In this document: one piece after another, positions 11,422-60,196 of the stretch
Position numbering within the stretch: position 1 is the first letter of the stretch
Layout of the letters: the number at the start of each line of letters is the position of its first letter
Assembly: GCA_963514005.1 (NCBI GenBank)
Contig: OY740816.1
Location: forward strand, 22,754,001-22,818,000
Direction of reading: 5' to 3'
Source: Raja brachyura
Taxonomy: Eukaryota
Length of the DNA: 64,000 bases
Notes under the pieces: generated by a model
What the model was told of the DNA's origin: nothing
Databases searched by the model: none
Seen by the model: only the letters and a program-made list of their open reading frames with translations
Position numbers and translations under genes: made by a program

Positions 11422-11423
11422 GG

Positions 11424-13211
11424 TTAGCGCCGGGGTCTAGACTGTGGTGTCTTCGCTCCTCGTGTGGCGCGGCCCTGTTGCCGCATCTTCCAAGCTGGCT
11501 TGGGCTGGCCTTGGAATAAAAAAGGCCTCTGCTGTTGGGCCCCCGCCGAGGAATATGTTTGGGAATATGTTCTGGGGCCTTGGTCCACCGATGTGTGGGG
11601 CCTGAACGAGGAACGTGGCTGCTGCCTGGTGTAACCGGGAGTTTTGGATGAATAAGACTGTCTCATCATCCCCACAGTCTTGGCTTCCTCGTCCAGTTCC
11701 TTTACGCGTTTAGGCAGGTCTTCCCCAAACAACTGCCTTGGTGGTGGTGGTGCGGTGGAGGTGCTGCATAATCCCGCAAATTTGGGATTCAAATTTGGCC
11801 GGATGGAGCTCTTCCTGAAACAGTTTATCTCAAACTGTGTGGTGCACAGAAGTGCTAGCGCATCCTGCTGCTCCTCGGACACATTCGTGGCATCCAGCGA
11901 CCGAGCAAAAGCCGTGATACCTGCTGTCAGCAGCTTTAAGATTTTCTGGAGCTTGCCCTCCTTGACCCTTGTGTTCGCCGACATGTTCCCCCATATTGCT
12001 GCATTCACTTTCGGTACGTTGAGGGAGTTACAGTTTGCTGGTGCCTTATACTTCCCCACTGTTTCCGAGAGCACGGTATCCTGGAGCTGGTGCGTAGTCA
12101 GGAAATCGATTGACGCCGCTATTTTGGGATGTAGTGGTCCTCCTGCCGCCGCAGGTGACCCAAATTTCGATACCGCCTCCAACATTTCCTGTGGGTTCTG
12201 GACCTCTTCTCCCTCCTCAGGCTCACCCATACTTCCTTGCTGGCTCTCAAGCGACGGGGAGATAGAAGGTGGCGGCTGCATGTAGCTCCCAGACCTCTGG
12301 GATTCCCGTTCCTGACGCTCCAGGTCCCGCTGATATAGCACCTCCACCATATGCTCCAACCGGCCGATACGACCGTCACCGCTGTACGCGGGCCACTGGT
12401 CGTCTTCCCCAGCCTCTCCAGAGGAACCGGGGCTTCCAGCAGTTGTCAACACCCCCACGGAATGTACTGCCGGGAAGTCGCCAGCTCCCACTCCAGCGGG
12501 GCTGTGCGACTCCCACACGGACACACCGCTGGTCCGCCGTCGTTTGGACAGCAGCGGCCCCTCTGTCTGATGGGAGGGAAGAGGGCTAGAGTCAGTACTT
12601 GCACCAGAAACTGGACTCTCTGATGTCCGTGCGGGCTTACCACCACAGCGTTCCACATATAAACGGGACTGTGGCGGCGCATGGTCTGCTTTACCCGCCT
12701 CAGCAGGGGCGCTGGACCGTACTTTGCTGCCACCGGCCCGCACTACGGCAGCCTGTTCCGGTGGTGTGCCGGTACATCCTGCCCCCACAGGGATCCTCGG
12801 CACGCCAGCATTGCCACTGGTCTGCTTCCTTGCAGGTTTCCCCAGTGGCTTGTCCCTGCCTGCCGTACCGACAAGGCTGGACTTTAGCGAGGCTTCCCCC
12901 CTGTTCTGCCCGCGAGGGACCTTTAAAGGGGGGGATGCACTCGCGGACACGCTTGCTCCAAGAGCCCCACGTGCCTTACCTCCAGCCCTGGTCTTGGGCA
13001 CTGGAGTTCTAGAGTCAGGGTCTCCCAGCCCCTGCTCCTGCGCGGACACCCTCTTCTTGGCCAGAGGGGTTGTGCCGGGTCTGGTCAGCTGCTCAGAGCT
13101 CCCCGACTGCCGCGACTTCTTCCTCGGTGGTGTCTCAGCTGCTCCCGATGTAGCGGGCAGCTCCGAGGACTTCACTCGCTGAACGCGACTCCCACTCCTT
13201 CCTCCTTCCAT
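11424..13211 (-). CDS. DIRS ORF1 Gag-like protein (~595 aa)
   Basis: ACCATGG start at 13211. Low-complexity N-terminus, then a conserved core (IAASIDFLT...P-N--L--PKVN--IW...R---RP-L-PKFAGLC...LFGEDL) shared with copy 2. Confidence 0.85.
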   Translation of the reverse strand: MEGGRSGSRVQRVKSSELPATSGAAETPPRKKSRQSGSSEQLTRPGTTPLAKKRVSAQEQGLGDPDSRTPVPKTRAGGKARGALGASVSASASPPLKVPRGQNRGEASLKSSLVGTAGRDKPLGKPARKQTSGNAGVPRIPVGAGCTGTPPEQAAVVRAGGSKVRSSAPAEAGKADHAPPQSRLYVERCGGKPARTSESPVSGASTDSSPLPSHQTEGPLLSKRRRTSGVSVWESHSPAGVGAGDFPAVHSVGVLTTAGSPGSSGEAGEDDQWPAYSGDGRIGRLEHMVEVLYQRDLERQERESQRSGSYMQPPPSISPSLESQQGSMGEPEEGEEVQNPQEMLEAVSKFGSPAAAGGPLHPKIAASIDFLTTHQLQDTVLSETVGKYKAPANCNSLNVPKVNAAIWGNMSANTRVKEGKLQKILKLLTAGITAFARSLDATNVSEEQQDALALLCTTQFEINCFRKSSIRPNLNPKFAGLCSTSTAPPPPRQLFGEDLPKRVKELDEEAKTVGMMRQSYSSKTPGYTRQQPRSSFRPHTSVDQGPRTYSQTYSSAGAQQQRPFLFQGQPKPAWKMRQQGRATRGAKTPQSRPRR

Positions 13212-14330
13212 GGTTCTGAAAAAAAAACACACAGACCACACAAAAAACGGTAAACCAGCTCAAGGTTAACTTACCTGCAGCTGCTTACCTTTTTGAAGGA
13301 GCCGGTTGAGGGAGCGCACTCCCCCCCCCAGCTGCCGTGAGCAAATGCGCGCGACGATATGCCGCGCATGCGTGTTGGCGGGGTCTTCACGAAGTTACTC
13401 ACGTGACTCCGAAGTAAAATGACGTGCTGCGCTGTTTGCTGGTCTGCTCCACACATGCAGGCTGCTGATGAACACAGCCCCAGGAGTATCCCAAGGCAGA
13501 GGGTTGGCAGGGGAAAGGTAGGTTCACTCAAGTACAAAGGAAGAAATGTACGTGTGGAGTCAGATGAAGTGGGTGAGGTTATTTAGGAGTACTTTGCATC
13601 AGCATTTCACCAAGCAGAATGATATGGATGATAGTGAGATTAGGGTGGGGAATCTTTATACAGACATGCAGCTTGTGAACATGCCACTGCCGCGCAGAGA
13701 GACTTCAAATCCATTAGCCAAAAGATATACTGTGTGGGTGATCAATGGTCGGCATGGACTTGATGAACCGAAGGGTCTATTTCCATGTTGCATCTCCAGT
13801 CATACAACATGGAAACAGGCTCTTTGTCCAACTAATGCATGACAACTAGGATGCCCCATCAAAGCTAGTCCTATTTGTTCATGTTTGTCACATATTCCAC
13901 TAAACTTTCCATATTCAGGTACTCATCCAGTATATTTATATTAAGAAAAATATGTTGGGTCTTTTGAGAAACATTAATGTGGATAAGTTCTTGGAGTCTG
14001 ATAGGATCTATCCGGTGATTCTGAAGGAAGCAAGTGAGGAGATTGCTGGGGTCATGACAGAGATGGACATAGTGTTGGAGTAACTCAGCGGGTCGGGCAC
14101 CATATCTGGAGAACATGGATAGGTGGCGTTTTCCATCAGGCTCCTTCTCGTGTCTCGACCCAAAGTGTCACCTAACCATGTTCTCCAGAGATGTTGCAAC
14201 ACCTGCTGAGTTACTCCAGCACTTTGTGTCATGTTGTACATTAACCAGCATCTGCAGTTCTTTGTCTCTGCGCCATGACAGAGATTCTTTGTTTCCTCTT
14301 TGGCCACAAAGTGCCAGAAGATTGGGGATT

Positions 14331-31135: not shown

Positions 31136-31416
31136 CTAACTGACAGGTGTAATACAACTTTTATTATTTGGACCAGTCTGTGAGTTATTGTCATTGCCGT
31201 TTGAAATCACTTCCTGCAAAGGAATAGTGTCCAGAGGTTCATTCACACGAGGGATTTCTTGGTTTTTGCTGGGTGTTGGATTCAGTAGATTATATTTTCC
31301 AGATTTCCGAGCTCTGTCAATCCACCAACAGATGTATATTATTATTGCTATTGCCACCAATATTATTAACACCACAACTATTAGAATGATGGTGATATCC
31401 CTTGTCGATTCTTCAC
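31136..31416 (-). CDS. Exon 6, transmembrane helix and cytoplasmic tail
   Basis: Acceptor ttttccacag. Hydrophobic run ITIILIVVVLIILVAIAIIIYICWW, then RARKSGKYNL, stop TAG at 31136-31138. Confidence 0.88.
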
Positions 31417-37400: not shown

Positions 37401-40400
37401 CTCTCCAGAGATGCTGCTTGTCCCACTCAGTTACTCCAGCATTTTGTGTCTATCTTCGGTTTAAACCAGCATCTGCAGTTCCTTGTTTCTACATTGGAAG
37501 CATCCTGTTTTTTGAAGAGAACCACGAGAAAGCATGCAGTTCAGAGCAGAACCACTAGGCGGCAATGCAATAGGTTCCCATACCCATTGATTATAGCGGT
37601 CTTTGTTTCATTCAGGAAACAGCCTTTTCAATCCTTGTACTGATCCCATATTCCCATCCTGAACAGGTAGATGTGAACAGAGAGTCTACAAGTTGAGTGT
37701 CCAGAAATTTGATTTTAACATTTAAAAGTAAAGTGGATAGGTATATGGACGGGAAGGGAATGGAGGGGTATGGTCTGAGTGCAGGTAGATGGGACTAGGG
37801 GACTATAAATGGTCGGCACGGACTGGAAGGGCCGAGAAGGCCTGTTTCCGTACTGTAATTGTTATATGGTTATTGTTATATGGTAATAAGTTACAGTTGC
37901 AATGGTTCTAGAAAACCATCTTTGTATCTTAGTTTAGTTTTGTTTAGAGATACAGCGCGGAAATGTGTCCTTTGGCCCACGAGTCCGCACCGACCAGCGG
38001 TTCCCCACACTAACACTATCCTACACACACTAGATACAATTTACAATTATACCAAGCCAATTAACCTACAAAACTACGTGTTTGGAGTGTGGGAGAAAAC
38101 CGGAGATCCCCGAGAAAACACATGCAGGTCACGGGGAGAATGTAAAACTGCATATAGACAAGCACCCCGTAGACAGGGTCGAACCCGGGTCTCTGGGGCT
38201 GCAAGGCAGCAACACTACCGCTGCGCCACTGTGCCACCCCATTCATGATTGACTGGCAGACTCGATTGCACCAATGTAAAGTTACTTACGTTGCACATTG
38301 AGTGTGGTATTCTTTTGCTTAACAATGGGTTCAGAGTGATGTTGGAGTGTCAGCTCAGCCTCACAAGTCAACTGCTGTCCATTCAACTCCATCTCTGGAT
38401 ACAAAGTGTGGTAGATAGTGAGCTCTGTACTGGATGAATCGTTTGCTAAAATCGTACTTCCGTTCTTCAGTGCAAATTGAAGTGTTCCCGAGGCATTAAA
38501 CACACTGCAAGTAATATTCACCGGTTTTCCAACAATGATGGTTTTGGGAGCATGGATTACAGGTTCGGGAAAAACTGCAACAACAGAAAAATATTGTTAG
38601 AAACAGTGTCAAACCGTGTGATAAATGCTTATCTCAAGATGCATTAAAGCACACTCTTTTGTCTTGCATAAAACCTCAGAAGTTTTGGAATGAAATTTTT
38701 GAAATTTGTACAAAAGTATTTAAAACAGAAATTAACCCTAATGCAGAATTGATTATCTTTGGAACAATGGAGACCGGCTCTGAGATCACTTTGTTCCAAG
38801 AGAGTTTCCTTAACTATGGCTTAATAACGACAAAAAAACTTATATTAAAATTCTGCAAAACAAAATGCACCAACACCAACACTTAAAATGTGGATTTCAA
38901 ACATGTTGGAATTGTTACACCTAGAAGATATGAGATTCGTCCCAGCAGGCAAATCAGACCAATTCTTAAAGATTTGGTCTCCCTTTATCGATTTATTACA
39001 AGCATATGGTGCAACATAATCCTGAAAAAAAACTGTTTCAGAACCGGGTGAGGGGTGCACAAAGATACAAAGTAGGTATATCCCTTCCATTTTATCTTCC
39101 TTTTATTATCCTTTTTTTTAATATACCTCCTCCTTTCTCTTGTACTTTTGACGAACTATCACTATCACCACCTTACCTAACTTTCCTTTTCTCTCTTTTT
39201 GCTTATATTACTTTTTTATTAAATTCAAAACCAGAAGTTGTATATGAAATGTATTATTTTATTCTTAATGTACCCTATTGTATATGACTTCTAATAAAAA
39301 TATAATAATTTAAAAAAATAAACCGTGTCAAAGTTTATGGCAGCACGGTGGCGCAGCGGTAGATTTAAATGTAATCGCCTTACAGCGTTATAGGTTCGAT
39401 CTTGACTATGGGTGCTGTCTGTACGGAGTTTGTACATTCTCCCCGTGACTTGTGTGGATTTTTTCCGGGTACCCCAGTTTTCTCCCACACTCCAAAGACG
39501 TACAGGTTTGTAGGTTAATTGGCTTTGGTAGAGATTGTAAATTGTTCCCAGTGTGTGTCGGATAGTAGTGTTAGTATGCGGGATTGCTAGTCAGCATGGA
39601 CTCGGTAGGCCAAAGTGCCTGTTTCCGCGCTGTATCACTAAACTAAACTGAATGAATGATGCAGCCGCTCTACATGACTGGACTAATGTGGCGAATGCAA
39701 CTCAGAAGACCGTCTATGGCTCTACATCCAACTGTAGTTGGACAAGGATCGGAGGCAATCACTAAAAGGCACCCCATTATTCCCGGCATCATTCACCCCC
39801 TTTACCAATCTCATCAAACCTAGTGACACGTTGGTTGAACGCATCCTGATAAGTGCAATTTGCAATGTCCTCAATGTTTGGGCAACACTGGCAAAGTTCC
39901 CATTGAACACCAGGTGTAGGAAGGAACTGCAGATGCTGGTTCATACCGAAGATAGGCACAGAATGCTGGAGTAACTCAGCAGGACAGGCAGCATCTCTGG
40001 AGAGAAGGAATAGGAGACATTTCGGATTGAGGTTGTCAAAATGAGACCTGAGACAATATAATAGATGAGGTCATGACAATATCATGACATGAGACAAGAT
40101 GAGGATCAAGAACAATGTAGAATAGATCAGAATGTAGAATAGGAGAAGGTGACCACAAAGCAAACAGAGACAAAATGTAATTGGGGAGACTGTTCAGAGA
40201 ACTGGGAAGGGGGAGGGATGGAGAGAGAGAGGGAGAGCAAGGGTTACTTGAAGTTAGAAAAGTCAATGTTCATACCACTGGGGTGTAAGCTGCCCAAGCC
40301 AAATATGAGGAGTTGTTCCTCCAATTTGTGTTGGGCCTCACTGTGACAATGGTGGAGGCCCAGGACAGAAAGGTTGGTGTGGGAATGGGAGGGGGATTTA

Positions 40401-43400
40401 TAGTGTTTAGCATCTCCACCCTGGCCGGTAACAAGCCAGAGGCTTCTACGTCATTTCAGGGAACTCTTTGCTTTCAAAACAATGGTAAATAGTCCACTGA
40501 TTTAATTCCTCGGTGTAAGGAAGGTACTACAATATTTCTCCTTGATGTAAATGTTATGCATCTACATTCAGTTTTTATCTCGGATAAATTTAGTTCCTGG
40601 TAGCTGCCTCTGTAACGAGGTCTACATTAAAAACAGACAAAATAAGAGCAGGGCTTTGTCACATGCTCCAACGAGGCAGCTCTTGAATGAGAAGGGTATC
40701 GACCCTAAATGCCACCCATTCCTTTTATCCAGAGATGCGGTCTGCCCTGCTGAGTTACTCCAGCATTTTGTGTCCATCTTCCATTAGTAAGAGCCTGGCT
40801 GAATAACAGTATCTAGGTGACATTGCATGTTGCCTTTTTTTCCCCTAATTCCTTTGTTTTCTGTAAGGGCCGATTAAAGTTTTGTGACTCTCCTGTACCA
40901 AATGTCCCCATGTAATGGTTGCCCACAGGTAGATAAGAATCTTTAACAGTTGCCAGAGGAGGTAGCTGAGGCAGGGACTATCCCAACATTTAATAAACTA
41001 GTTACACAATTACATGGATAGGACAGGTTCAGAGGGATTATGGCTAAACGTGGGCAGGTGGGACTAGTGTAGCTGGGACATGTTGGCCGGTGGGGGCAAG
41101 TTGGGCCGAAGGGCTTGTTTCCACGCTGTATGACTTTGACTCTATGATATCAACCATAATCTCCGGTTATACAGCATGCTTACCGTACACGTCAATGGAA
41201 ATGTTGTCACTCCTTGTTAGATTTAATGGATAATCCTCAAAATCTGCTCTGCAGGTGAGTTCAATCGGTCCCGTGTCTTGTGGTGTCCATGTTGTTGCCC
41301 AGATATCGTGGGATGCTGACGTCTTTGTATCTGACTTCAGTTCTTCATCATTGTGAAACCATGTTACAGTCAACTTCTCAGCTGGATAGACATTATGGAC
41401 CTCACATTCCAACGTGACCTCCTCATTCACTACAATGGGCTTTCTGTTGAGGATTCTAGGGGGCTCTGGAAAAGCTGGAAAGACACACAAGGAATTCACT
41501 GCATATTAGGTTTCTGTGGACAATGGAACTAATGGAAAGCAGACCAATACTGGCATTGCATTGAACGCACAAACAGGAGTTCACCACACCCAAGTCAGAA
41601 TCTAGATGTCCCATAATTTAGTTTAATTCAGAGATACAGCGCAGAAACAGGCCCGCTGCGCCACCGTGCCACACACATTTGTTATTTAAATAGACTCCTC
41701 ATATGCTTCTGGCATCCCGAGGATCTATCTCTGCTTTGAGCTCCAGCCACTTACTGACATAGTACGACACAAAGTTCTGGAGTACCTCAATGGGTCAGGC
41801 AGCCTTTCTGGAGAACACGGATAGGTGATCTTTCACGACCCCTTCCATGATCTCCAGAGATGCTACCTGGCCCGCTGAGATACTCTGGCACTTTGTATAA
41901 ACCAGCATCTGCAGTTCCTTGTTTCTACTGTGCCCAGATAGGTTCAGTAACTGTTCTAAGAAACAATCCCCGGAGCACTCCAGAAGCTGTAATGAGGTGG
42001 GCGGGGGGGAGGTTGATTGGCGCAGCGGTAGAGTTGCTGCCTTACAGCACCTGAGACCCGGGTTCGGTCCTGACTATGAGTGCGGTTTGTACATAGTTTG
42101 TACATTCTCCCCATGATCTACGTGAGTTTTCTCCAGGAACTCCGTTTTCCTGCCACACTCCAAAGATGTGCAGGGTTGTAAGTTAATTGGCTTGGTAAAA
42201 ATGGTAAATCTACCCTAGTGAGTAGAATAGTGTTAGTGTGCGGGGATCGCTGGTCGATGCAGACACGGTGGGCTGAAGGGCCTGTCCCCATGCTGTATCC
42301 CTAAACTAAACCAAGCAGAAACACACATTGTGTTAACATGTTCTGCAGAGTTGCAGTTGCAGACAGGGTGAACTCAACTTAAAGTGCTTGTTCTGAGGAT
42401 AACTCATCTCTCCTGGTTTAGTGTCTGTGGCTTGCTTGTAAATGTGTCAGCAGACAGCACGGTGGCGCAGGGGTAGAGTTACTGCCTTACAGCACCAGAG
42501 ACCAGGGATCAATCCTGACTAAGGGTGCTATCTGTATTGAGTTTGTACATTCTCCACGTGACCTGTGTGGGTTTTATGCAGGTGCTCTGGCTTCCTCCCA
42601 CACTTCAAAGACATGCACGTTTTATAGGCTAATTGGCGTGGTACAATTATAAATTTCCATACTGTTTAAGATAATGTTGGTGTGGGGGGGTCGCTGGACG
42701 GCACGGACTCGGTGGGCCAAATGGCCTGTTTCCACGCTGTATCTCTAAACTAAACTGAACTTTACAAAATGTGACTACCAGTTTATTTCAGCTTAGTCTT
42801 GTGCAGAGGAGAGCAATTATTGTTCAGGTGGAACTCACAGTAGGTTTGCAGAGTCACGGAGGAGGAGTTGATTTCTTTCGTGGTGTTTGTGTCCAAGTCC
42901 AGCTCTGCCAAGCATGTGTACACTTGTCCATCATCAGCCTTGCTTGCAATGAGATCGAGGATATTGACCAACGGAGTCGCATCTTCTGGAAGCTTTCCTA
43001 CCTTTGAGTTAACTGGCTTAACAACATTGTTCCCTCTGAGCCACTTGAGATGGAGCTTGTTGTTTGGATACACTCTTGGACCGGTACAACGCAGCTGATA
43101 TGTTTTGTTAATTTCCATCACTTCTGGATGTGGTGCAATGACGAGATCTCGATCTGTTGAAGGAGAATCATGTTAATAAAATTCACTGAAATAATGAACC
43201 TGAATAGTATTTGTCCCACCTCATCAGATATTCACCGATTGTTCAAGTGATATACACACAGCATGAATGTACATATATTCTTCAATATTTAGGGTGGCGC
43301 AGTGACGTAGTGGTAGAGTTGCTGCCTTACAGCACCAGAGACCCGGGTTTGATCCAGACTACAGGTGCAGTCTGTACGGAGTTTGTAAGTTCTCCCGATG

Positions 43401-46400
43401 ACCACATTGGTTTTCTCCGATATCTTTGGTTTCCTCCCACAATCCAAAGAGATACAGGTTTGTAGGTTAATTGGCTTGGTATAGTGTAAATTGTCCCGAG
43501 TGTGTGTGGGATAGTGTTAGTGTGCAGGGATCGCTGGTCCTTGTGCACTTGGTAGGCCGAAGGGCCTGTTTCCGCACTGAAATTCTAAACTAAACAAAAC
43601 TAAATTGTAAGCAAGAACTTAAATGTTCTCTCCCCACAGATGCTGGTTGGACTGCTGAGTGTTTCCAGTATTTCAGATTTAGTTTAATTCAGAGATGCAG
43701 CATGGAAATAGGCCCTTCAGCTTTCTGACTCCACACCGACCATCAATCACCCGTTCATACTAGTTCTACGTCATCCCACTTTCTCATCCACTCCCTACAC
43801 AATAATGGCAATTTACAGAGGCCATTTAACCCATCTCTCCTACATTACATTCTACATTATTTATTCCACATTTTCCTTGGTCTGCATTCCCTTTGTTCTG
43901 TTTTCACACCTTTCACTTCCTTATCTATGTACACCTCTCTCCCCTGACATCAGTCTATAGAAGGGTCTCAACCCAAAATATCACCCATTCCTTACTCCAG
44001 CATTTTGTGTCTATCTCCGGTTTAAACTAGCATCTGCAGTTCCTTCCTACACATTCAGAGTTTGAGTTTAGTTTATTGTCACGTGTACCAAAGTACAGAG
44101 AGAAGCTTTTGTTGTGTGCTGACTAGTCAGTGGAAAGACTATACATGATCATTTTAGAATAAGAGTTTTCACTTACTATACACTGTGATCACAAGTTTTC
44201 AAAGCTTCTTGTTTAGTTTCGTTTAGGGAAACAGGCTCTTCAGTGATCCCTGCACACTGCCACTATCCTACACACACTAGGGACAATTTACAGTTTTACC
44301 AAAGCCAATTAACCTACAAACCTGGAGTGTGGGAGGAAACGGGGCACCCGGAGAAACCCCATGCAGGTTACAGGGAGAACGTACAAACTCCTTACGGACA
44401 GCACCCGTAGTTAGGATCGAATCCGTGTCTCTGGCGCTGTAAGGCAGCGGCTCTACTGCTGCGCCACTGTGCTGTCCGGTTCTGCGTATTATTCTGCTAT
44501 CAAATGGTTATAGAGTGATACAGAGTGGAAACAGGCCCTTCGGCCCAACTCTCCTATACCGGTTAGAATAGGAAATTACACTTACTGTACACAGTGATCT
44601 CTTTTTTGACTTCCTTCTGAGTATTGTTTTCAGATTTGCACGTTACAATGCAAACTGTTGATAAATCCCACTTGTCCACAACTGGGAATTGGCATGTGTT
44701 TGAGTTGTTCACTTGAAGGCAGTATTGATTTAGCCCTGATTTTAATTCCATGTCTATAGTAGGATTTAAACATGTGGTTCTGCAGGTCACATTCAAAGAG
44801 TCCCCGATTTCCACAGCTGGAGTGTCTATGTTTATCTCAACGTCAAATCCATTCCCTTTAGCTGTCAGAGAAAAACAAAACATCACAATAAGTACAGAGA
44901 TACAAAATCCATTTAAACAAAGGGCAAAATCAAGGTAATTTCTTGATCTAAAAGAATCATTTCAAATTACTCACAAACCAGTAACATACATTATATACTC
45001 TGATGACACTGTGATCATGGACCGTGAAGGCGACTGCGGAGGCCTCAATAGGCCTGACTATGGGTGGACATGGGAAGGGGACTGGACTTTGTGCATTCCC
45101 TCATAATGGGAACCATTGTGGGGGGATGTTTTTTATGTTTAAATCTCTTTATTATTGTTATGTCTGTTTTTTTTTATGTGCTGCATTGACAAGCAACATT
45201 TCACTACACCAATTGGTGTATGTGACCAATAAAAATAACCTTTGAACCTTAACCTTTAATAACATTCAATATGTCAGCCCGGTTTGGGTGACTATCCAAC
45301 ATCCATCGTAACCCACTAAACAAAATCATATCAATGAGCAGTAAAATAATTGGACTGGAGCAGGAACCACTGATCAGTATTTCCAATAGAAGGACGAAGC
45401 TAAAAGGAACAACAATAGCCTCAGACACCACTCACTCACTGCACAGCCAATACAGTCTTCTGCCCTCAGGCCAGAGATACAGGTCACTCACATTCAGGAC
45501 TAAGAGAGCCATGTTGAGTTTCGTCCATCCATTAGACTCATGAATAGTTGATCTATTTATTTATTCATTTATGTATATATACATTTTTAACATTATTTTA
45601 ATGTGTTTATTGCCTATTCTTCATGTATTATGCTTTGCAAGTTTTACCTACTGACCGTTGTTGGACTGGTGGTATGTGATGTGTGTGGTATATTGTGTTG
45701 TGATGCTGGGTATGTGAACTGTACACGCACTGATGTTTGCACAAATGAAGTTCCTAACGGATAAATAAATTGAATTGAATTGTTAAACTTTTTTTTCCTA
45801 CGAATTTTATAACTCCAGGAAATGGGAGTCGGTGTTAGAGACTGAGGTGATTCTTAACTTTTCCTGTTGTTCAAGTAAAGGATGTTTCTGTTTAGCAAGT
45901 GCTGAATATACAGTAGAATAAACAGATTGACAATGGAGAAGTGCTCAGTGATTGGGCTCCATATCACCATTGTACACGCTATTTTGTTTTAAGATAGACA
46001 CAAAATGCTGGAGTTATCCAGCGAGTCAGGCAGCATCTCTTGAGAAAAGGAATAGGTGACGTTTGGGGTCGAGAACCTTCTGCAGACAGAGTCAGGAGAA
46101 AGGGAAACGAGAAATATAGAACAGATGAATGAAAGATATACAAAAAAAGTAACAATGGTAAAGGAAACAGGCCATTAATTCAGCGGCTAAGGCAGCGCGT
46201 GGGGAAGGAACGGACAGGCGGGACCCTTCAGGCAAAATGCGTTTTAGGCAAACATTTAAATCACAAGAGAATCACATTTAAATCTACTGAAAAACATGTT
46301 CAAACTTCCTTCCAGATGGAAAGCCGGTGATGTTTCTGACCCGCCGGGGCAGCGGGTCACGGTTCCCGCGTGGAACAGGCCATCGCTGCCGGGGCTGGAG

Positions 46401-47583
46401 GCGAGACCTCACCCCCGTCCGGCGGCCCAGAGGCTGCAGGTTGGAGCCACACTGCCCCGGCCCACAGGTACAGTCACTCACTCACACACACTCACTCACA
46501 CACAGTCNNNNNNNNNNNNNNNNNNNNNNNNNNNNNNNNNNNNNNNNNNNNNNNNNNNNNNNNNNNNNNNNNNNNNNNNNNNNNNNNNNNNNNNNNNNNN
46601 NNNNNNNNNNNNNNNNNNNNNNNNNNNNNNNNNNNNNNNNNNNNNNNNNNNNNNNNNNNNNNNNNNNNNNNNNNNNNNNNNNNNNNNNNNNNNNNNNNNN
46701 NNNNNNNNNNNNNNNNNNNNNNNNNNNNNNNNNNNNNNNNNNNNNNNNNNNNNNNNNNGTCACACTCACACACACACTCTCACTCACACACACACTCACT
46801 CACACAGTCTCACTCACACACAGTCTCACTCACACACAGTCTCACTCACACACAGTCTCACTCACACACAGTCTCACTCACACTCACACACACACTCTCA
46901 CTCACACACACACTCTCACTCACACACACACTCACTCACACACTCACTCACACACACTCTCACTCACACACTCTCTCACACACTCTCACTCTCACACACC
47001 CTCACATACTCACAAACACACAATTACTCTCACACATTCACTCTCTCTTTCACACATCCACTCACACATAATCACATATACAAGCACACTCACGCAGACG
47101 CACTCACACACGTTCTCACTCTCACACGCATACACACTCACCCTCACAGACACACTCCACACGCGCACAGACTTTTACACACACACTCACGCACGCACGT
47201 GCACACTCGCTCCCACATCCCCCACACACACTCTCACGCACACTCATGCTCACACTCACACATATTACACGCACACACTAGCTGCAACGGTGCCGGCAAT
47301 GGCCAGCGTCCGGGCAGCGCCCTGTCCCACCGCGCCCCTGCTCCACTCCGCCAAAAATAAGCAATCGCCTGCTTTTTGTTTGGACATTAATAAATGATAG
47401 GAAATCCGCCCGCTGGTTATCGAGCTCAGCTTAATAGCTCGGCCTTGAAATAAAAACGGTACACGCCATGGGAGAAACGCGTCTGACATGAGGATTTTAC
47501 TAACTTGTTAACGTGAATACGAGCAAGACGAGGTGAAGGTATCTCCCGCTTGAAGTGAGTGTAGAGACCATGACTGCGATCAT
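31136..47583 (-). CDS. ICAM/VCAM-family Ig-superfamily adhesion molecule (ICAM1-like), 6 coding exons, ~508 aa: signal peptide + 4 Ig domains + TM + cytoplasmic tail
   Basis: Exons 47505-47583, 44586-44861, 42839-43153, 41184-41474, 38290-38574 and 31136-31416 all have GT/AG boundaries, are all phase 1, and join into one open 1527-nt frame. ICAM-type motifs: D1 C-x3-C pairs (CRTTC...CIVTC), D2 'KWLRG...DDGQVYTCLAELDL', D3/D4 junction 'IDVYVFPEP', tail 'RARKSGKYNL'. Confidence 0.88.
33229..34153 (+). pseudogene. CR1 ORF1 (Zn-finger/leucine zipper + SGNH esterase)
   Basis: ATG at ~33229 followed by an early TAA. CARC motif; GDSIVRG, HIGTND and DGLHLN esterase blocks. Confidence 0.85.
34270..37102 (+). 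pseudogene. CR1 ORF2 (AP endonuclease + RT)
   Basis: ISETW, YRPP, GDFN, SDH (APE); YRPVSL, DFSKAFD, GVPQGSVLGP, YADD (RT). Split into three ORFs. Confidence 0.9.
37712..37885 (+). mobile_element. Short CR1 3' end, near-identical to the end of the long CR1
   Basis: Matches 37015-37176. Confidence 0.8.
37930..38240 (-). mobile_element. V-SINE (HE1-like), ~50 bp from the exon-5 donor
   Basis: Reverse-complement SINE consensus. Confidence 0.8.
38290..38574 (-). CDS. Exon 5, Ig domain 4
   Basis: Acceptor ttttctgttgttgcag, donor C|gtaag, 285 nt. FPEPVI...VNITCSV...NGQQLTCEAEL...LNVQ. Confidence 0.88.
38605..39322 (+). mobile_element. L1 3' fragment abutting the exon-5 acceptor
   Basis: CDKC...H..LSC.K.Q.FW...IIFG...LNYGLITTKKLILKF, homologous to the L1 C-terminus at 956-1387. 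AATAAA and A-rich tail at ~39293-39322. Confidence 0.75.
39340..39650 (+). mobile_element. V-SINE (HE1-like)
   Basis: GGCAGCACGGTGGCGCAGCGGTAG head, V-domain, (CTAAA)n tail. Confidence 0.8.
41184..41474 (-). CDS. Exon 4, Ig domain 3
   Basis: Acceptor tctttccag, donor G|gtaag, 291 nt. FPEPP...TLECEVHNVYP...VTW...LTCRA...IDVY. Confidence 0.9.
42015..42760 (+). mobile_element. Two V-SINE copies (42015-42312, 42455-42760)
   Basis: SINE consensus present twice. Confidence 0.8.
42839..43153 (-). CDS. Exon 3, Ig domain 2
   Basis: Acceptor ctccttcaacag, donor T|gtgagt, 315 nt. YQLRC...VYP...KWLRG...DDGQVYTCLAELDL...LQTY. Confidence 0.9.
43290..43605 (+). mobile_element. V-SINE (HE1-like)
   Basis: SINE consensus. 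Confidence 0.8.
44215..44475 (-). mobile_element. V-SINE (HE1-like)
   Basis: Reverse-complement SINE consensus. Confidence 0.8.
44586..44861 (-). CDS. Exon 2, Ig domain 1
   Basis: Acceptor tttctctgacag, donor A|gtaag, 276 nt. FDVEI...LNVTCRTTC...STVCIVTC...ITVY. Confidence 0.9.
45255..45545 (+). mobile_element. Rex1-like LINE 3' fragment in intron 1
   Basis: SDTTHSLH.QYSLLPSGQRYRS motif. Confidence 0.6.
46472..47280. repeat. (CA/CT)-rich microsatellite containing an assembly gap (N 46508-46758)
   Basis: cactcacacacagtct-type repeats flank 251 Ns, in intron 1. Confidence 0.95.
47505..47583 (-). CDS. Exon 1 (signal peptide) of ICAM-like gene
   Basis: ATG at 47583 gives MIAVMVSTLTSSGRYLHLVLLVFTLT, then a phase-1 donor A|GTTAGT. 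It joins exon 2 as ...TTKGNG/FDVEI, a plausible cleavage site, and lies just downstream of the promoter motifs. The second in-frame ATG (Met5) could be the true start. Confidence 0.8.
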
Positions 47584-47639
47584 CGGCGCCAGCTGCCTCT
47601 CCGATCACCGCCCGTCCAACTGAACACAGCGCTCCCGCA

Positions 47640-47810
47640 GCCCACTCACTCACTATTAATGCAAACAATCGCTCGGATTTCCCGGAAACAATTCCGAAAC
47701 TAAATCTAAATGCTGAAAAAGCCCCACAGTTCAAAAAAAAAACCTCCCCTCGGCTCGCCGCTGCGAACAAGCATTACAGAGACGGACTTGGGGAAAGTCC
47801 GGTGACAATC
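47640..47810 (-). promoter_or_regulatory. Proximal promoter of ICAM-like gene: GAS/STAT palindrome, kappaB-like site, TATA-like box
   Basis: On the gene strand: TTTCCGGGAAA (47678-47688), CGGACTTTCC (47792-47801; 9/10 match to GGGACTTTCC) and ATTAATA (~47653-47660), about 70 nt before the ATG. The context is CpG-rich and not a recognisable repeat. Confidence 0.65.
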
Positions 47811-48587
47811 GTGAGGTAAACACGCCCATATGTGCAGAGCGATGACCACTGGCGAGAGGAATGTACACTGGCGAGAGGATCTTTGCTGCAGACTGCCCTT
47901 GACACCAGTGGAAGATCCACACTGGATATAAGCTCTGATAATAAGCGCAATGGTGTTACTCCCCACCTCTCTCCCTCGCCTACATTCCCATCACAGTAAA
48001 CCAGCATCTGCAGTTCCTTCCTTCACAGTACCCCCCCCCCCCCCCCATACCCCTCTACTCCTGCCTCTCATCATAGTAAACCTCCCACGTTCCCATCACT
48101 GTAACCCCCTCCCTACCCAGTCTCCCGTCACAGTAACAACCCCCCCCACCCGCTGCTCCCCATCATAGTTCATACCTTCATAAGTTCTAGGAGCAGAATT
48201 AGACCCATCAAGTCTACTCCGCCAATCATTCTTTGCTGGTCTATCTCCCTCTCAACTCCATTCTTCTGCCTTCTCCCCATACCTCCCGACACCCGTACGA
48301 ATTGAGACTCTGTCATTCTCCTTAAAAATATTACCTTCCACCGAAATGAATTCCACAGTTTCACCACTGTGGAAATTCCTCCTTATCACCTTTTTAAAGG
48401 TTCGTCCTTTTATTCTGAGGCTATGGCCTCTGTTCCTAGACTTCTCTCACTAGTGGAAACATTCTCTCTACATCCACACTATCCAGGCTCTGCAAAAGTC
48501 ATAGATAGGTTTCTTGAGCCGCTTGAAGGTAGATAAAAATACTGGAGAAACTCAGCGGGTGAGGCAGCATCTATGGTGCGAAGGATT

Positions 48588-55355: not shown

Positions 55356-58300
55356 AATAGTAAGATTAAACGAGAACTTACCTGTTCGAAGTTTGATCTT
55401 TATTTTATGAGGAGTTACGATGAGGGATTATGTGAAGAAGCCCCGCCTGGCGCTTGACCGGCATACTTCAAAGCAGCGGCATGAAAATCACAGAACCAAT
55501 AGCCGAAGTAAGATAGTAAGGCTCAACATAGACTAGAACTACCAGATGATCATTTATATTATGAGGGCTGGGAGCGGAGGGCAAGTAATCCCTCATCGTA
55601 ACTCCTCATAAAATAAAGATCAAACTTCGAACAGGTAAGTTCTCGTTTAATCTTACTATTTTACTTCGGAGTCACGTGAGTGACTACGTGAAGATTTTAA
55701 AGCTCTGTGTTTTTTATGTCGTAGATTCATTCCATACAACACTCTGTTTAGTCAATACAGTAGTGAGTAAATAATATTTTTAAAAACATTGTTTCAATTT
55801 ATGTAATGTCTTTTAATCATAAAAAGAACATTTTTTTAATAATAACCCCTCTATCCCAGGGGAAAAAGTTTACAACAAAAGTGATAATGATATCAAATGA
55901 TAACATAAATCGATAATATAAATCGATAATATAAAACAAAGCAAGCATTTAAAGCGAACCCAACACTGCGTGTCCAAATCCTGGCACCGTGACAACTGGT
56001 TTATCGTAGAACTTTGGAAAAGTTTCTTCTTTACACCACCCTGCGGCCTCTAAAATTTGATCGAGTGGTACGTCCTGTACCTTTGCCGCGGACACAGCTG
56101 CAGCCCTAGTGGAGTGAAAATTAAACACATCAGTGTCCACTCCTGCTAAATCCAAAACCTGTTCTAACCATCTAGAAATGGTTTGAACTGCAACTTTTGT
56201 ATGTGGTTTTTTGTGCGTTATCAGTAACGCTGTCTCAGCACCTCGGAGATTTTTGGTTACTTCAATATATTTAGTTAAATGCTTAACTACACACAATGTT
56301 TCATCGACAGGATATGTTTTAAACATTACCTGGGTTCCAGTTTTTCCTGGTCTGCTTTGTTTGATCAGATCATAAACATAAAACACAATGTTACCTGAAG
56401 CCACATGCATGCAATCTAACCGTAACAATTGCAAAGTTTGTATTCTTTGAGCTGACACTAACGCCATTACATTACTACCTTGAATGTTAACCTTTGCAAA
56501 GACATTGAAGTAATTGGAGTCCATTGCCTAAGCAAAGTTAGAACAATGCTAACATCCCAAATTTGTGTATCACTGGGCTTGGGAGGATTTTTATTAAAAA
56601 TTCCTTTCATGAACCGGGATATTAATGGGTGAAACCCAATTGAATCTCGATCAGAAATTTGTCCTAAATAGGACGACAAAGCACTACGAGCACTATAACT
56701 TAAGTGCTCATCAAAATGCAACCCAACAAGGAACTCCAATACATTTGATATGTTCACAGTATGATAAGATATCTTTGACTGTCTACCGAAGACTTCCCAT
56801 TTCTTTATATGCGACATATATTGTTTTTTAGTGCTATTTCTCCAAGCTGCAGCTATAACATCCATGGTCTTATCCAACAGTCCAAGCTCTTGCAATGGTC
56901 TGGTCAGAACCTGCAGATTAACAAATTCATATGATCATGCAATGGATGAATTTCTTTTGTTACTGGTTGTATCAACAATCGTTGCAACTAGGAATCGTCA
57001 TACATGGTTCAATAATCATTTTAAGCATCAACGGGAACCATGACTGTGTAGGCCAATTTGGCCCCACCAAAATGCCCTTGGCAGCGTCTTGCACTATTTT
57101 CTTGAGACATTGCCCAATCAGACAGAATGGGGGAAAGGCACAAAAGAACATATTCCCCCAGTGTAGCGAGAAAGCATCCACCGCTACTGCCCCTGGATCG
57201 TGTTCCCAAGACACATATTTGGGCAATTGGTGATTTAATCTAGATGCAAACAGATCAATGTCCGGTACTCCAACCGACTGACAATATTTTTGAAAATTTG
57301 TGGATTTAACATCCATTCTGTACTGTCTTTAAATTTTCGTGATCTTTTGTCTGCCACTATATTGTCTCTCCCTGGGAGATAAATAGCTGAAAACCGAATA
57401 TTCTTACCAATACACCAATGCCACACCTGGTTAACCAGATGATCACATGATAATGATCTTACTCCACCCATGTGATTGATATATATGCCACAGCTGTGGT
57501 ATTGTTTACTTGTAATTGGACATGCAAATCCTTCATAGTAGAACAATAAACTTTTAATCCATAAAATGCTCCCAGTAACTCCAAATAATTTATACCATAT
57601 GTTTGGAGAAATATATCCTCTTGGACAGTCCATCTGCCCCCACAGCTGGAATCATTATCCGTAGCACCCCATCCGAGAGAACTTGCATCAGTTTGCAAAA
57701 TCACTGCTGGCTGCTGAACCAAAATGTTTTTAACAGCTTGTGGAACATTCTCAATCCACCAATGCAATTCTAATAAAGCTTCCTTTGGCAATTGCTTGGG
57801 CCTATCAAAATGGCCTGCTTGCTGCATAAGTGCTTGTGTTTTTGCCCTTTGGAGATTTTGGTAATGCAGTGGACCAAATTCTACTGCAGGGAATGCTGCT
57901 ACTAACTTAACAATAACCTTAGCAACTTCTCGGATGGAGGGATAAGGTTTGTCAATAAGGCACCGACATACATTTGTAATATCAACAATCTTGTCTATTG
58001 GTAAAGTTACTAACATGGTAACTGAATTAATCACAAACCCCAAATATTCAATAATTTGGGATAGCTGTAACTTAGATTTTGTTGGATGAATCAGGAAACC
58101 TACCCTTTCAAACAGGCTTGATTTTTCAGCTGATTCCTGATTAGCATTGACAATTAAAATGTCATCTAGATAAGCAATAACGATGTGTTTTTGTGCCCTT
58201 AGCAGTGCAAGTGCTGGTTTCAGCAATTAGTGAACAACCTAGGAGCTGAGCTTAATCCATTAGGTAATGCTTTGTATTACCACAGCTGTCCCATCCAATT

Positions 58301-60196
58301 AAATTTCAATACCTGCGAAAGTGACGATGAATTGGTACTGAATAATATGCATCCTTCAAATCTATTGTAGCCATGTCACAATCTGTTGATACCAGCTGCA
58401 TTGCAGTGTTGAAGGTGTCCATTTTAAAATGTTTATACTGGACAAATGTATTAAAATGTGTGAGGTCTAAAATGATTCTACAACCCCCATCTTTCTTTGG
58501 TCTGGGGAAAATATTTGATACAAATTGTTGTGGATCCTCACTTGATTTCTCGATAACTCCTTTTTTACACCAATTCTTAACTTCTTTATCAATTTGAATT
58601 TTTTCAAATACAGAAAACACCAAATACGATTAGGCTTATTCTGTCCCGGTGGATCAATACCTTCTACAAAATCAATGGTAGATCCTAAGACAGTACTTAA
58701 TATAACACGGTCAGATGTTATACAGTCCCATTTATCATAAAACATTTGTAGACTACCACCAATCATAGGTTCATCCAAAGATTCTTCTGTAATAGGATAA
58801 AGTTTTTGTACCTCTCCAACCGGACGTGGTGGTCTCCTTCTCCCAACATATGGGTAACATTCGGCTGTGCTGGTTGGTAATATTTCCTTACCATACTCCT
58901 GCCTCGGCTTGTTCCAGCTCCAAATCAAAATCCCCTTCTCATTTGACCGGCCCTTCTTTGGCCAAAATGAAGGGTTTCATGAGGTCAATAGTCTTTGCCT
59001 CTTTATCAATCTCTTTATTTATTTAAACAGATTTTCTCCGAACAAATAACCAGGAGCTTGAACATTGCTTGATCTGCACAAACCTGCAAATCTTGGATGT
59101 AAAATAGGCCGAATGGCAGTCTTCCTCATACAATTAATCTCAAATATTGAGTTGCAGAACAATGCCAACATATCCTTCTGAACTTTGGTCATTCCACAAT
59201 CTTCCACTTGCCTTCCAAAAGCAGTGATTCCAGCCGAAATCATATTTCCTGCACCCGCATCATTGATGACATTGGCGCCAAATAGCCGAATTTACCGTAG
59301 GTACCTTCAGTGAGGTATAATAATTCTGCTGTATCAACCATAACAGCTTCTTGAAGCTGGTGAGAGACCAAATAATTTATGTTGGCCGCCAGGTTTTCTT
59401 CCATGGCCTCACCGCCTCCTCCAGGTATAGAAACTTTGTGCCACATCAGACACACCTGGAGCAATATTTTTGTATTGTGGTGGGTACTCATGACCGAACT
59501 CACCACCTTCAGGATCAGTCTCACGCAGCCCTGGTACTCCTGAGACTTTGCTCAAGGACTTTCTCCAGCCCAATCCCGGGCTCTGGAGTTTCAAATTCCC
59601 AATTCAAACTGGCACCATATTCATGATATGGAACCCCCTCAGGGGCTGCCTGGGAATATTCTGGGTTTTTTAGACCCTTGGTTGATTTTTGTCTAGATCA
59701 TTTTCCATTTGATCCATTCTAAGCCATAAGGCTTTTCTATCTGGAGGACTTTCATTATCAGATTCATCAGAAACCACGGGCCTCTCAGATTTTCTTTTAC
59801 GTTTTTTAGGCACTGGATTTGCCTCCGTGGCTTCTGCTTGTGGAGCAACCAAAGGCTCACTAACGGGTATTTCAACGGCCACCGGTATCGGAACTGGCTC
59901 CGCAATAATCGGCTGTCCCGACTCTTCTCCTCCCCGGGACGCACGTTTTACCCGCGATTTTTTAGGAGCTTTCTCAATTTTTATTTTTAAACACTTCCTG
60001 GTCTTTTCCCACCAGCCCCACGGAGTTTGAAATGCCCTGGAAGTAAAAATAATTTACTTACCTGCGGGCCTGTTCCTTACCGCTGGTGGAGCTGCGCTCT
60101 GCTAGCTCTTCTCCTACCAACAGCGTCGACGTAATGCCGATCAAGCGCCAGGCGGGGTTTCTTCACGTAGACACTCACGTGACTCCGAAGTAAAAT
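55356..60196 (-). mobile_element. DIRS1-type retrotransposon, copy 2 (full-length, ORFs frameshifted)
   Basis: Same terminal/ICR sequence as copy 1, with a perfect 75-bp IR at 55356-55430/55586-55660. Broken Gag (~58960-59950), RT/RH/MT (~56905-58830: IDLKDAY, YLDD, TDAS, IDLFASRLN, AFPPF) and YR (55949-56910: SAQR, HSTR, FY). Confidence 0.93.

What the first reader, a model, noticed from the sequence alone, without database searches (positions are those of the whole stretch)
47640..47810. ICAM1-type inflammatory promoter architecture apparently shared between a cartilaginous fish and mammals
Seen: on the gene strand, TTTCCGGGAAA (47678-47688) lies ~20 nt upstream of a TATA-like box, with a kappaB-like site ~105 nt further upstream. 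Known: TTTCCGGGAAA is the palindromic IFN-gamma/IL-6 STAT element of the human ICAM1 promoter, which cooperates with an NF-kB site roughly 110 bp upstream. Inference: a STAT + NF-kB module on ICAM-like genes may date to the jawed-vertebrate ancestor, and it supports an ICAM rather than VCAM identity.
Basis: partly seen in the sequence, partly recalled or inferred. Interest (0 to 1): 0.7.

Follow-up and report, generated by a model that had tools for sequence, protein, structure and literature searches.

The report
Skate ICAM promoter mirrors human ICAM1
An ICAM-family adhesion gene of a cartilaginous fish (likely a skate) has the same 11-base interferon-response element just upstream of its start as human ICAM1, plus an NF-kB-like site at nearly the same distance, so inflammation likely switches it on in the same way, though shared ancestry of the layout is untested.

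Summary
The motifs are present as described. TTTCCGGGAAA (47688-47678, minus strand) lies at -117..-107 from the ATG (47571) of a six-exon, four-Ig-domain ICAM-family gene that groups with skate proteins. It sits in unique sequence in the window's most CpG-rich stretch. It is identical to the human ICAM1 GAS and optimal for STAT1; an optimal GAS arose in 129 of 60,000 shuffles of the 300 nt upstream. A kappaB-like 9-mer starts 112 nt further up (human: 110). Alone it is unremarkable (4.5-43% of shuffles); only its spacing is notable (0.07-0.75%). The TATA-like box is weak (2 mismatches) and 16-18 nt from the GAS, against about 35 in human. Most likely this is a STAT- and NF-kB-inducible promoter. 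Descent from the jawed-vertebrate ancestor is untested: no orthologous promoter could be fetched, GAS+kappaB is a generic immune module, the family expanded separately in rays and sharks, and ICAM1 orthology is not shown. Protein evidence leans ICAM, but ICAM-1 and VCAM-1 tie on domains 1-2. New member of a known kind; interest 0.4.

The parts
47792..47801 (-). kappaB-like site CGGACTTTCC (-230..-221 from ATG); one mismatch to the classical decamer; lies in a 7-bp inverted repeat (47783-47801)
   Evidence: function inferred
47806..47811 (-). CGATTG hexamer 4 nt upstream of the kappaB-like site; human ICAM1 has the same hexamer 8 nt upstream of its kappaB site (assignment as the C/EBP element is recalled)
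   Evidence: human oligos in PMC3320982 Suppl. Table 1; adjacent C/EBP element in PMC10215618; post hoc
47694..47701 (-). ISRE-like half site AGTTTCGG, one helical turn upstream of the GAS; not a complete ISRE
   Evidence: ISRE pattern absent; compared by eye with Table 1 of PMC5985295
47678..47688 (-). GAS / STAT element TTTCCGGGAAA (-117..-107 from ATG), optimal STAT1 core
   Evidence: PMC5737217; PMC5985295
47674..47683 (-). second kappaB-like decamer (one mismatch) overlapping the 3' half of the GAS
47654..47661 (-). weak TATA-like AT-rich element CATTAATA (2 mismatches on the gene strand)
47608..47613 (-). GC box GGGCGG (-42..-37), downstream of the AT-rich element
47251..47850 (.). CpG-island-like stretch over the promoter, exon 1 and the start of intron 1
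   Evidence: observed/expected 1.07-1.23 vs 0.47
47505..47571 (-). exon 1 coding part, signal peptide; ATG 47571 in strong context, in-frame upstream ATG 47583 in weak context; phase-1 GT donor
   Evidence: tblastn of R. longicauda N-terminus hits 47571-47503, 70%, E 4.6e-7
44586..44861 (-). exon 2, Ig domain 1 (Pfam ICAM_N, 28.4 bits, cut-off 21)
42839..43153 (-). exon 3, Ig domain 2 (best PDB hit ICAM-2)
41184..41474 (-). exon 4, Ig domain 3 (Pfam ICAM1_3_5_D2, 33.4 bits, cut-off 27.5; best PDB hit ICAM-1)
38290..38574 (-). exon 5, Ig domain 4
31136..31416 (-). exon 6, transmembrane segment and cytoplasmic tail, stop codon

Best explanation
This stretch lies directly upstream of the first coding exon of an ICAM-family gene and is likely its cytokine-inducible promoter: the optimal GAS at -117..-107 would bind activated STAT1 (IFN-gamma) or STAT3 (IL-6 family), and the kappaB-like site 112 nt upstream would bind RelA-containing NF-kB after TNF, IL-1 or TLR signals, the two likely cooperating as at human ICAM1. 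Shown: the gene model, ICAM-family domains, the motifs and their positions, unique CpG-rich context, and more-than-chance occurrence of the GAS. Inferred: that transcription starts about 50-60 nt upstream of the ATG (CpG-island start, weak AT-rich element), that the factors bind, that they synergise, and that the protein recruits leukocytes through an integrin. Whether the layout is inherited from the common ancestor with mammals (about 0.4) or was gained separately is a separate, open question.
For: GAS identical to the human ICAM1 element and of highest STAT1 affinity in vitro (PMC5737217); 129 of 60,000 shuffles. kappaB GG-to-GAS distance 112 vs 110 nt, same order and same strand; slot probability 0.07-0.75%. 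GAS-to-ATG -117 vs -116. Top CpG tile of 251; unique sequence. Exon 1 confirmed by a named skate relative. IFN-gamma, IFN-gamma receptors, JAKs and STATs are present in cartilaginous fish (PMC5332411). A trout ICAM-1-like gene rises about 2-3 fold after viral infection (PMC8417878).
Against: No TSS, expression or binding data. The kappaB-like site is non-canonical and chance-level alone; an exact human-type decamer arises by accident in a repeat remnant at 48370-48379. The TATA-like element is weak and not at the human position (16-18 vs about 35 nt after the GAS). Acceptor-like AG sites at 47712 and 47705 (9-10 pyrimidines of 15, vs 10-12 at the five real acceptors) leave an upstream non-coding exon possible. 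A little-skate model (P0002) splices a different, Thr-rich N-terminus onto domain 1.
Confidence: 0.6

Rival explanations
1. Same mechanism, independent origin: the GAS and kappaB sites are functional but were gained separately in the skate lineage, and the near-identical spacing is coincidence or reflects a preferred geometry.
For: GAS+kappaB is shared by unrelated immune genes (IRF1, IP-10, iNOS). The family has several paralogues per contig in rays (3 of 3 Mobula birostris, 3 of 3 Hemitrygon and 4 of 4 Hypanus hits share a contig length). Domain 1-2 units group largely by lineage, and skates form a long-branched 100/100 clade. By eye, the spacer shows no convincing alignment to the human oligos and holds a poly-T run. 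TATA position differs.
Against: Three positional matches at once (GAS 11 of 11, spacing within 2 nt, ATG distance within 1 nt) plus a shared CGATTG next to the kappaB site are each expected at about 1% or less under free placement (and hand estimate).
Confidence: 0.3
2. Only the STAT element is real: the gene is IFN-gamma or IL-6 inducible, and the kappaB-like 9-mer is a chance match (or NF-kB acts through the decamer overlapping the GAS instead).
For: One-mismatch kappaB decamers occur at 96 positions in the window and in 43% of local shuffles. The site lacks the first G. A second candidate overlaps the GAS.
Against: The site also fits the stricter GGRNWTTCC pattern (9 positions in 64 kb) and sits within 2 nt of the human spacing.
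Confidence: 0.25
3. Chance look-alikes: the motifs are not regulatory, or the region is 5'-UTR or intron of a transcript that starts further upstream.
For: CpG-rich DNA favours CCGG cores. Acceptor-like sites lie just upstream of the GAS.
Against: The shuffles kept local dinucleotides and still gave 0.2% for an optimal GAS, about 1.5% after allowing for roughly seven motifs one would look for at an ICAM gene (hand estimate). The CpG peak coincides with exon 1.
Confidence: 0.12

Closest known systems
Human ICAM1 proximal promoter (palindromic IFN-gamma/IL-6 GAS + variant NF-kB site + adjacent C/EBP element)
   Same: Identical 11-bp GAS. GAS starts at -117 vs -116 from the ATG (that the human 11-mer itself starts at -116 is recalled, the review gives only a region -116 to -36). 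kappaB GG 112 vs 110 nt upstream on the same strand. Both kappaB sites lack the first G. CGATTG just upstream of kappaB in both. Signal peptide on exon 1, one Ig domain per exon.
   Different: kappaB core differs at 2 of 9 positions (GGACTTTCC vs GGAAATTCC). CGATTG-to-kappaB gap is 4 vs 8 nt. No canonical TATAAA; the AT-rich element is 16-18 vs about 35 nt after the GAS. The human ETS sites at -118 and -96 from the TSS have no strict counterpart in the spacer (ETS scan). Four Ig domains and six exons, vs five (recalled) and seven. No function tested.
Generic STAT1 + NF-kB synergy promoters (IRF1, IP-10/CXCL10, iNOS)
   Same: Contain both STAT1 and NF-kB sites (PMC3670280).
   Different: Other GAS sequences (e.g. 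IRF1) and, from recall, other spacings; not adhesion genes.
Human VCAM1 promoter
   Same: NF-kB dependent adhesion-molecule promoter.
   Different: Two consensus kappaB sites are required (PMC10597632). No tandem pair here, and an optimal GAS is present (lack of a proximal GAS in VCAM1 is recalled).
Chondrichthyan ICAM/VCAM-like proteins (NCBI automatic names: ICAM1-like, ICAM5-like, VCAM1-like)
   Same: 78% identity to Amblyraja radiata P0010, 70% to Rhinoraja longicauda P0003, 45-59% to the other 23 named relatives. Shared Cx3C and E-[YL]-K-[PSA]-G motifs in domain 1.
   Different: Domain number varies from about 2 to more than 8 among relatives. The database names are inconsistent for the same family. 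Their promoters could not be examined.

Membership tests
GAS (STAT-binding) element | TTC-N3-GAA palindrome, optimal TTCC[CG]GGAA | tested here: met
   optimum from PMC5737217
GAS (STAT-binding) element | STAT binding and cytokine-dependent activity | not testable with these tools
   needs EMSA, ChIP or reporter
NF-kB (kappaB) site | classical decamer GGGRNWYYCC | tested here: not met
   one mismatch at position 1; the human ICAM1 variant site also has this mismatch
NF-kB (kappaB) site | RelA-type variant core GGRNWTTCC (consensus recalled) | tested here: met
   but chance-level in the window (10 vs 10.8)
ICAM1-type promoter module | kappaB about 110 nt upstream of the GAS, same order | tested here: met
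   112 vs 110 nt
ICAM1-type promoter module | canonical TATA box about 35 nt downstream of the GAS | tested here: not met
   no TATAWAW; weak AT-rich element at 16-18 nt; human position inferred from a primer in PMC4004456
ICAM1-type promoter module | C/EBP element adjacent to kappaB | tested here: inconclusive
   shared CGATTG at a different gap; the strict C/EBP consensus was not matched
ICAM1-type promoter module | TSS just downstream; synergy of IFN-gamma and TNF | not testable with these tools
   no transcript or functional data
ICAM1-type promoter module (homology) | presence in orthologous promoters of intermediate lineages | not testable with these tools
   no eukaryotic genome collection is offered
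ICAM/VCAM/MAdCAM integrin-ligand Ig family | domain 1 with four cysteines and ICAM_N fold; type I membrane protein | tested here: met
   Pfam ICAM_N above cut-off; D1-D2 model (pLDDT 90.8) best matches ICAM-5, ICAM-1, VCAM-1 and ICAM-2, Z 12-15, above other Ig proteins at 11.8 or less
ICAM branch (vs VCAM-1) | Cx3C spacing and no VCAM-type insertion before the acidic motif | tested here: met
   VCAM-1 alignment needs a 1-residue gap between the cysteines and a 2-residue gap before its motif; ICAM-2 aligns with one gap
ICAM branch (vs VCAM-1) | integrin-binding Glu at the end of strand C (recalled rule; VCAM has Asp in the CD loop) | tested here: inconclusive
   A conserved Glu aligns with the ICAM-1 Glu, but a Lys aligns with the ICAM-2 and ICAM-5 Glu. 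The Glu ends strand C in the full model (local pLDDT 66) and lies two residues past it in the better D1-D2 model
ICAM branch (vs VCAM-1) | closer to ICAMs than to VCAM-1 on the same two domains | tested here: inconclusive
   profile bits on D1-D2 constructs: ICAM-2 68.5, VCAM-1 42-44, ICAM-5 35.8, ICAM-1 27-28.5; Z: ICAM-5 15.2 (rmsd 4.3, 185 aligned), ICAM-1 13.8 (4.4, 177), VCAM-1 13.7 (4.7, 185), ICAM-2 13.4 (3.7, 180), MAdCAM-1 9.8
ICAM1 orthologue | one-to-one phylogeny with mammalian ICAM1 | not tested
   three protein searches returned only chondrichthyan or unnamed records; the tree has no bony-vertebrate rows
ICAM1 orthologue | conserved neighbouring genes | tested here: inconclusive
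   no host gene found: 8 of 129 ORFs hit Pfam, and all 8 read as mobile-element frames

The most novel reading that the evidence does not exclude
The kappaB + GAS pair, with its roughly 110-bp spacing and the neighbouring CGATTG, is homologous to that of human ICAM1. The TNF/IFN-gamma switch on leukocyte-adhesion genes was then already wired in the jawed-vertebrate ancestor some 450 million years ago, ICAM1 kept the ancestral ICAM promoter, and the spacing itself is under selection.
Probability: 0.4. Interest if true: 0.6.

Novelty: new member of a known kind. Interest (0 to 1): 0.4.

Why it matters
If functional, it shows that cartilaginous fish couple IFN-gamma/STAT and NF-kB signalling to a leukocyte-adhesion gene, and it gives a compact promoter (about 250 bp) for a direct reporter test in a lineage where cytokine target genes are barely mapped. 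If also homologous, it is a rare dated case of two binding sites keeping their spacing while the sequence between them turned over. It would also indicate which mammalian ICAM retained the ancestral regulation. If convergent, it points to a preferred STAT-NF-kB geometry. The module itself is a textbook type, so the surprise is moderate.

Tried and rejected
1. The bacterial genome scan was not used, as it cannot bear on this.

2. Accessions and cluster members of the two nearest named relatives could not be looked up.

3. Bony-vertebrate ICAM/VCAM sequences for a rooted tree: three searches reached only cartilaginous-fish or unnamed records. The tree used 31 rows: the window unit plus 30 domain 1-2 units from named proteins. 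Three partial hits (P0020, P0022, P0024), P0029 (no hit) and the unnamed P0001 were left out. It is midpoint-drawn and cannot order duplications against the mammalian genes.

4. The full-length profile A1 against PDB was dominated by I-set domains that other paralogues carry. It was replaced by the four-domain profile A2.

5. Synteny: no neighbouring host gene among 129 ORFs scanned. These were 125 ORFs of 55-199 aa in mostly non-repeated sequence outside the gene, plus 4 long element ORFs; shorter exons would be missed.

6. The exact human-type kappaB decamer at 48370-48379 was rejected as support. It lies in a repeat remnant (CR1-type by its ORF text, my reading) at a deletion junction relative to two other copies.

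7. ISRE, STAT6 N4, AP-1, CRE, CCAAT and strict C/EBP patterns (recalled consensus) had no match in 47250-48100.

8. A GC-rich stretch in the spacer resembles a human oligo by eye (10 of 12). A hand Karlin-Altschul estimate's parameters gives E about 0.2-0.3, so it was not counted.

9. The sigma-70 scan is irrelevant to a vertebrate promoter.

10. The Thr-rich N-terminus of P0002 has no counterpart in the window (best E 0.57); the N gap at 46508-46758 is unseen.

11. Literature: ten searches listed no paper on a chondrichthyan or other non-mammalian ICAM promoter. Only part of the hits were listed (30 of 67; 25 of 40; 5 of 6; 30 of 914), and the library lacks most subscription papers, so absence from print is not shown.

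Full report
The gene. The finding lies just upstream of a minus-strand gene with six coding exons: 47571-47505, 44861-44586, 43153-42839, 41474-41184, 38574-38290 and 31416-31136. All five introns are GT-AG and phase 1, and the frame gives 504 residues without internal stops. My first placement of the ATG (47572) was 1 nt off and the exon-1 query was out of frame; one search corrects this, and all relative positions here use 47571. The signal-peptide exon is confirmed by the N-terminus of Rhinoraja longicauda P0003 (70%, E 4.6e-7). Domain 1 passes the Pfam ICAM_N cut-off and domain 3 the ICAM1_3_5_D2 cut-off. The nearest named proteins are from skates (78% Amblyraja radiata, 70% R. longicauda), and the window's domains 1-2 fall in a skate-only clade with 100/100 support. 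The organism is therefore likely a skate; it was not identified further.

The observation. TTTCCGGGAAA is at 47688-47678, i.e. -117..-107, the only copy in the window (3 of 100 shuffles). Looser GAS patterns are at chance level window-wide, so position is what matters. In 60,000 dinucleotide shuffles of the 300 nt upstream, the 11-mer appeared 5 times, the optimal core 129 times and any N3 GAS 4,536 times. The kappaB-like CGGACTTTCC is at -230..-221, 103 nt before the GAS. It fits GGRNWTTCC (10 hits vs 10.8 expected) and misses the classical decamer by its first base. It is common alone (4.5%, 10% or 43% of shuffles by definition) but rare in a preset 5-bp slot (0.07-0.75%). Of 21 other N3 sites, none has a strict 9-mer and two have a one-mismatch decamer 100-122 nt away. 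The TATA-like element is weak: no TATAWAW on either strand, best gene-strand match CATTAATA with two mismatches, 16-18 nt after the GAS. The region 47280-47995 is unique in the window and carries the highest CpG ratio of 251 tiles, as expected of a vertebrate promoter, though two mobile-element tiles come close (1.07 and 1.03).

Comparison with human ICAM1. The human proximal GAS is the same 11-mer (PMC5985295 Table 1), and its core is the highest-affinity STAT1 site in vitro (PMC5737217). The human IFN-gamma element lies in a region starting at -116 from the ATG (PMC10215618); that the 11-mer itself spans -116..-106 is recalled. The human kappaB GG starts at -226 from the ATG (PMC4004456), against -229 here. 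GG-to-GAS is thus 110 vs 112 nt, in the same order and on the same strand. The same review places the kappaB site at -187..-178 from the translation start, whereas PMC3320982 counts -188 from the transcription start; I follow the latter because it agrees. Published human oligos show CGATTG 8 nt before the kappaB decamer (PMC3320982 Suppl. Table 1); here CGATTG is 4 nt before it, with a second copy at 47671. Against close homology: the kappaB cores differ at 2 of 9 bases; the spacer does not align convincingly by eye and contains a poly-T run; the ETS scan finds no strict site in the spacer; and the human TATAAA lies at about -70 (read from a primer), about 35 nt after the GAS, where this sequence is GC-rich. 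If the AT-rich element is the TATA, the 5'-UTR is about 18 nt longer than in human, and the matching ATG distance is partly coincidence.

How it likely works. IFN-gamma or IL-6-family cytokines would activate STAT1 or STAT3 dimers that bind the GAS. TNF, IL-1 or TLR signals would bring RelA to the upstream site. The two would cooperate to raise transcription from a CpG-island start some 50-60 nt before the ATG, putting more adhesion protein on the cell surface. The motifs, positions and gene are shown; binding, synergy, TSS and integrin binding are inferred. The pathway exists in the lineage: cartilaginous fish have IFN-gamma, its receptors, JAKs and STATs (PMC5332411), and a trout ICAM-1-like gene rises about 2-3 fold on viral infection (PMC8417878; the word promoter does not occur in that paper). 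I give 0.6 to the two-site mechanism. Rivals are STAT only (0.25) and chance or non-promoter (0.12); acceptor-like sites at 47712 and 47705 keep an upstream exon possible.

Ancestry and identity. STAT1+NF-kB pairs occur on unrelated immune genes (PMC3670280), so the module alone shows neither homology nor ICAM1 identity. Rays carry several paralogues per contig, domain 1-2 units group largely by lineage, and automatic names alternate between ICAM1-like, ICAM5-like and VCAM1-like. The skate gene is at best a co-orthologue of several mammalian ICAMs. The protein leans ICAM: Pfam hits, Cx3C spacing without the VCAM insertions, colinear four-domain matches to ICAM-5 and ICAM-1 by profile (62-73 bits) and by fold (VCAM-1 domains beyond 1-2 were not among the hits and cannot be compared). 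On two-domain constructs, however, the profile ranks ICAM-2 68.5, VCAM-1 42-44, ICAM-5 35.8 and ICAM-1 27-28.5, and a confident model of the Rhinoraja relative's domains 1-2 (pLDDT 90.8) gives Z 15.2 for ICAM-5, 13.8 ICAM-1, 13.7 VCAM-1, 13.4 ICAM-2 and 9.8 MAdCAM-1. The register of the integrin-binding Glu is ambiguous. No neighbouring gene gives synteny. The triple positional match favours inheritance over free convergence by perhaps tenfold (hand estimate), but the finding was selected for matching, and no intermediate lineage could be examined. I put homology at 0.4 and convergence of a functional pair at about 0.3.

Papers seen. Passages by term search: PMC10215618, PMC3670280, PMC5737217, PMC10597632, PMC12564054 (38, nothing useful), PMC3320982 (supplement files 2 and 3 searched, file 1 not), PMC5768537, PMC5361151, PMC10450919 (55, nothing on shark ICAM in the passages), PMC5985295, PMC5332411, PMC3296744 (67, no shark content), PMC8417878 (its supplement was not opened), PMC2212358 (69, no coordinates) and PMC4004456. 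None was read whole. The primary 1990s promoter papers were seen only as reference entries. Ten searches listed no study of a non-mammalian ICAM promoter; coverage limits are given under Tried and rejected.

Verdict. Observation confirmed; interpretation partly supported. This is a likely cytokine-inducible promoter of a known type on a skate ICAM-family gene, with a resemblance to human ICAM1 closer than chance and worth a cheap comparative test. Novelty: new member of a known kind. Interest 0.4, or 0.6 if the layout proves ancestral.

Noticed in passing
window 47689-47701 (-): An ISRE-like half site sits one helical turn upstream of the GAS. The stretch reads like an overlapping ISRE/GAS composite of the BST2/TAP1 type (PMC5985295 Table 1) interrupted by 5 extra bases; relatives may carry an intact composite.
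   Followed up: partly
window 47674-47683 (-): A second one-mismatch kappaB decamer overlaps the 3' half of the GAS, so STAT and NF-kB might compete there; a further one lies in intron 1 at 47400-47409.
   Followed up: partly
window 47846-47882: Two head-to-tail copies of a 19-nt unit with an identical 14-nt core just upstream of the kappaB-like site, and a decayed third at 47919-47936.
   Followed up: no
window 47660-47695: ATTGTTT (SOX/FOX-like, recalled) occurs twice, 23 nt apart, flanking the GAS; an octamer-like 7 of 8 match overlaps the AT-rich element.
   Followed up: no
window 48370-48379 (+): An exact copy of the human ICAM1 kappaB decamer, formed at a deletion junction in a repeat remnant; it shows how readily such sites arise.
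   Followed up: yes
window 8534-13259 (-): DIRS-type retrotransposon with three long open frames (gag-like 611 aa, reverse transcriptase 648 aa, tyrosine recombinase 339 aa), possibly young; a broken relative lies at about 55950-60050.
   Followed up: partly
window 5890-6660 (-): Tc1/Sleeping Beauty-type transposase remnant (Pfam HTH_SB, HTH_Tnp_Tc3_2).
   Followed up: no
window 46508-46758: Assembly gap of 251 N in intron 1 beside a long CA-rich microsatellite; an extra exon there cannot be seen.
   Followed up: partly
proteins P0004-P0030: Ray and shark ICAM-like proteins vary from about 2 to more than 8 Ig domains through internal repeats of the domain block, with several paralogues per contig; a second domain-1 type lacking the E-Y-K-P-G motif occurs in Pristiophorus, Cetorhinus and Heterodontus.
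   Followed up: partly
protein P0002 (Leucoraja erinacea LOC129714544 isoform X2): A Thr-rich repeated N-terminus replaces the signal-peptide exon and domain 3 is skipped; no counterpart of the N-terminus in this window. It may be an annotation artefact or an alternative first exon.
   Followed up: partly
window 47571-47583 (-): An in-frame upstream ATG in weak context could add four residues to the signal peptide.
   Followed up: no
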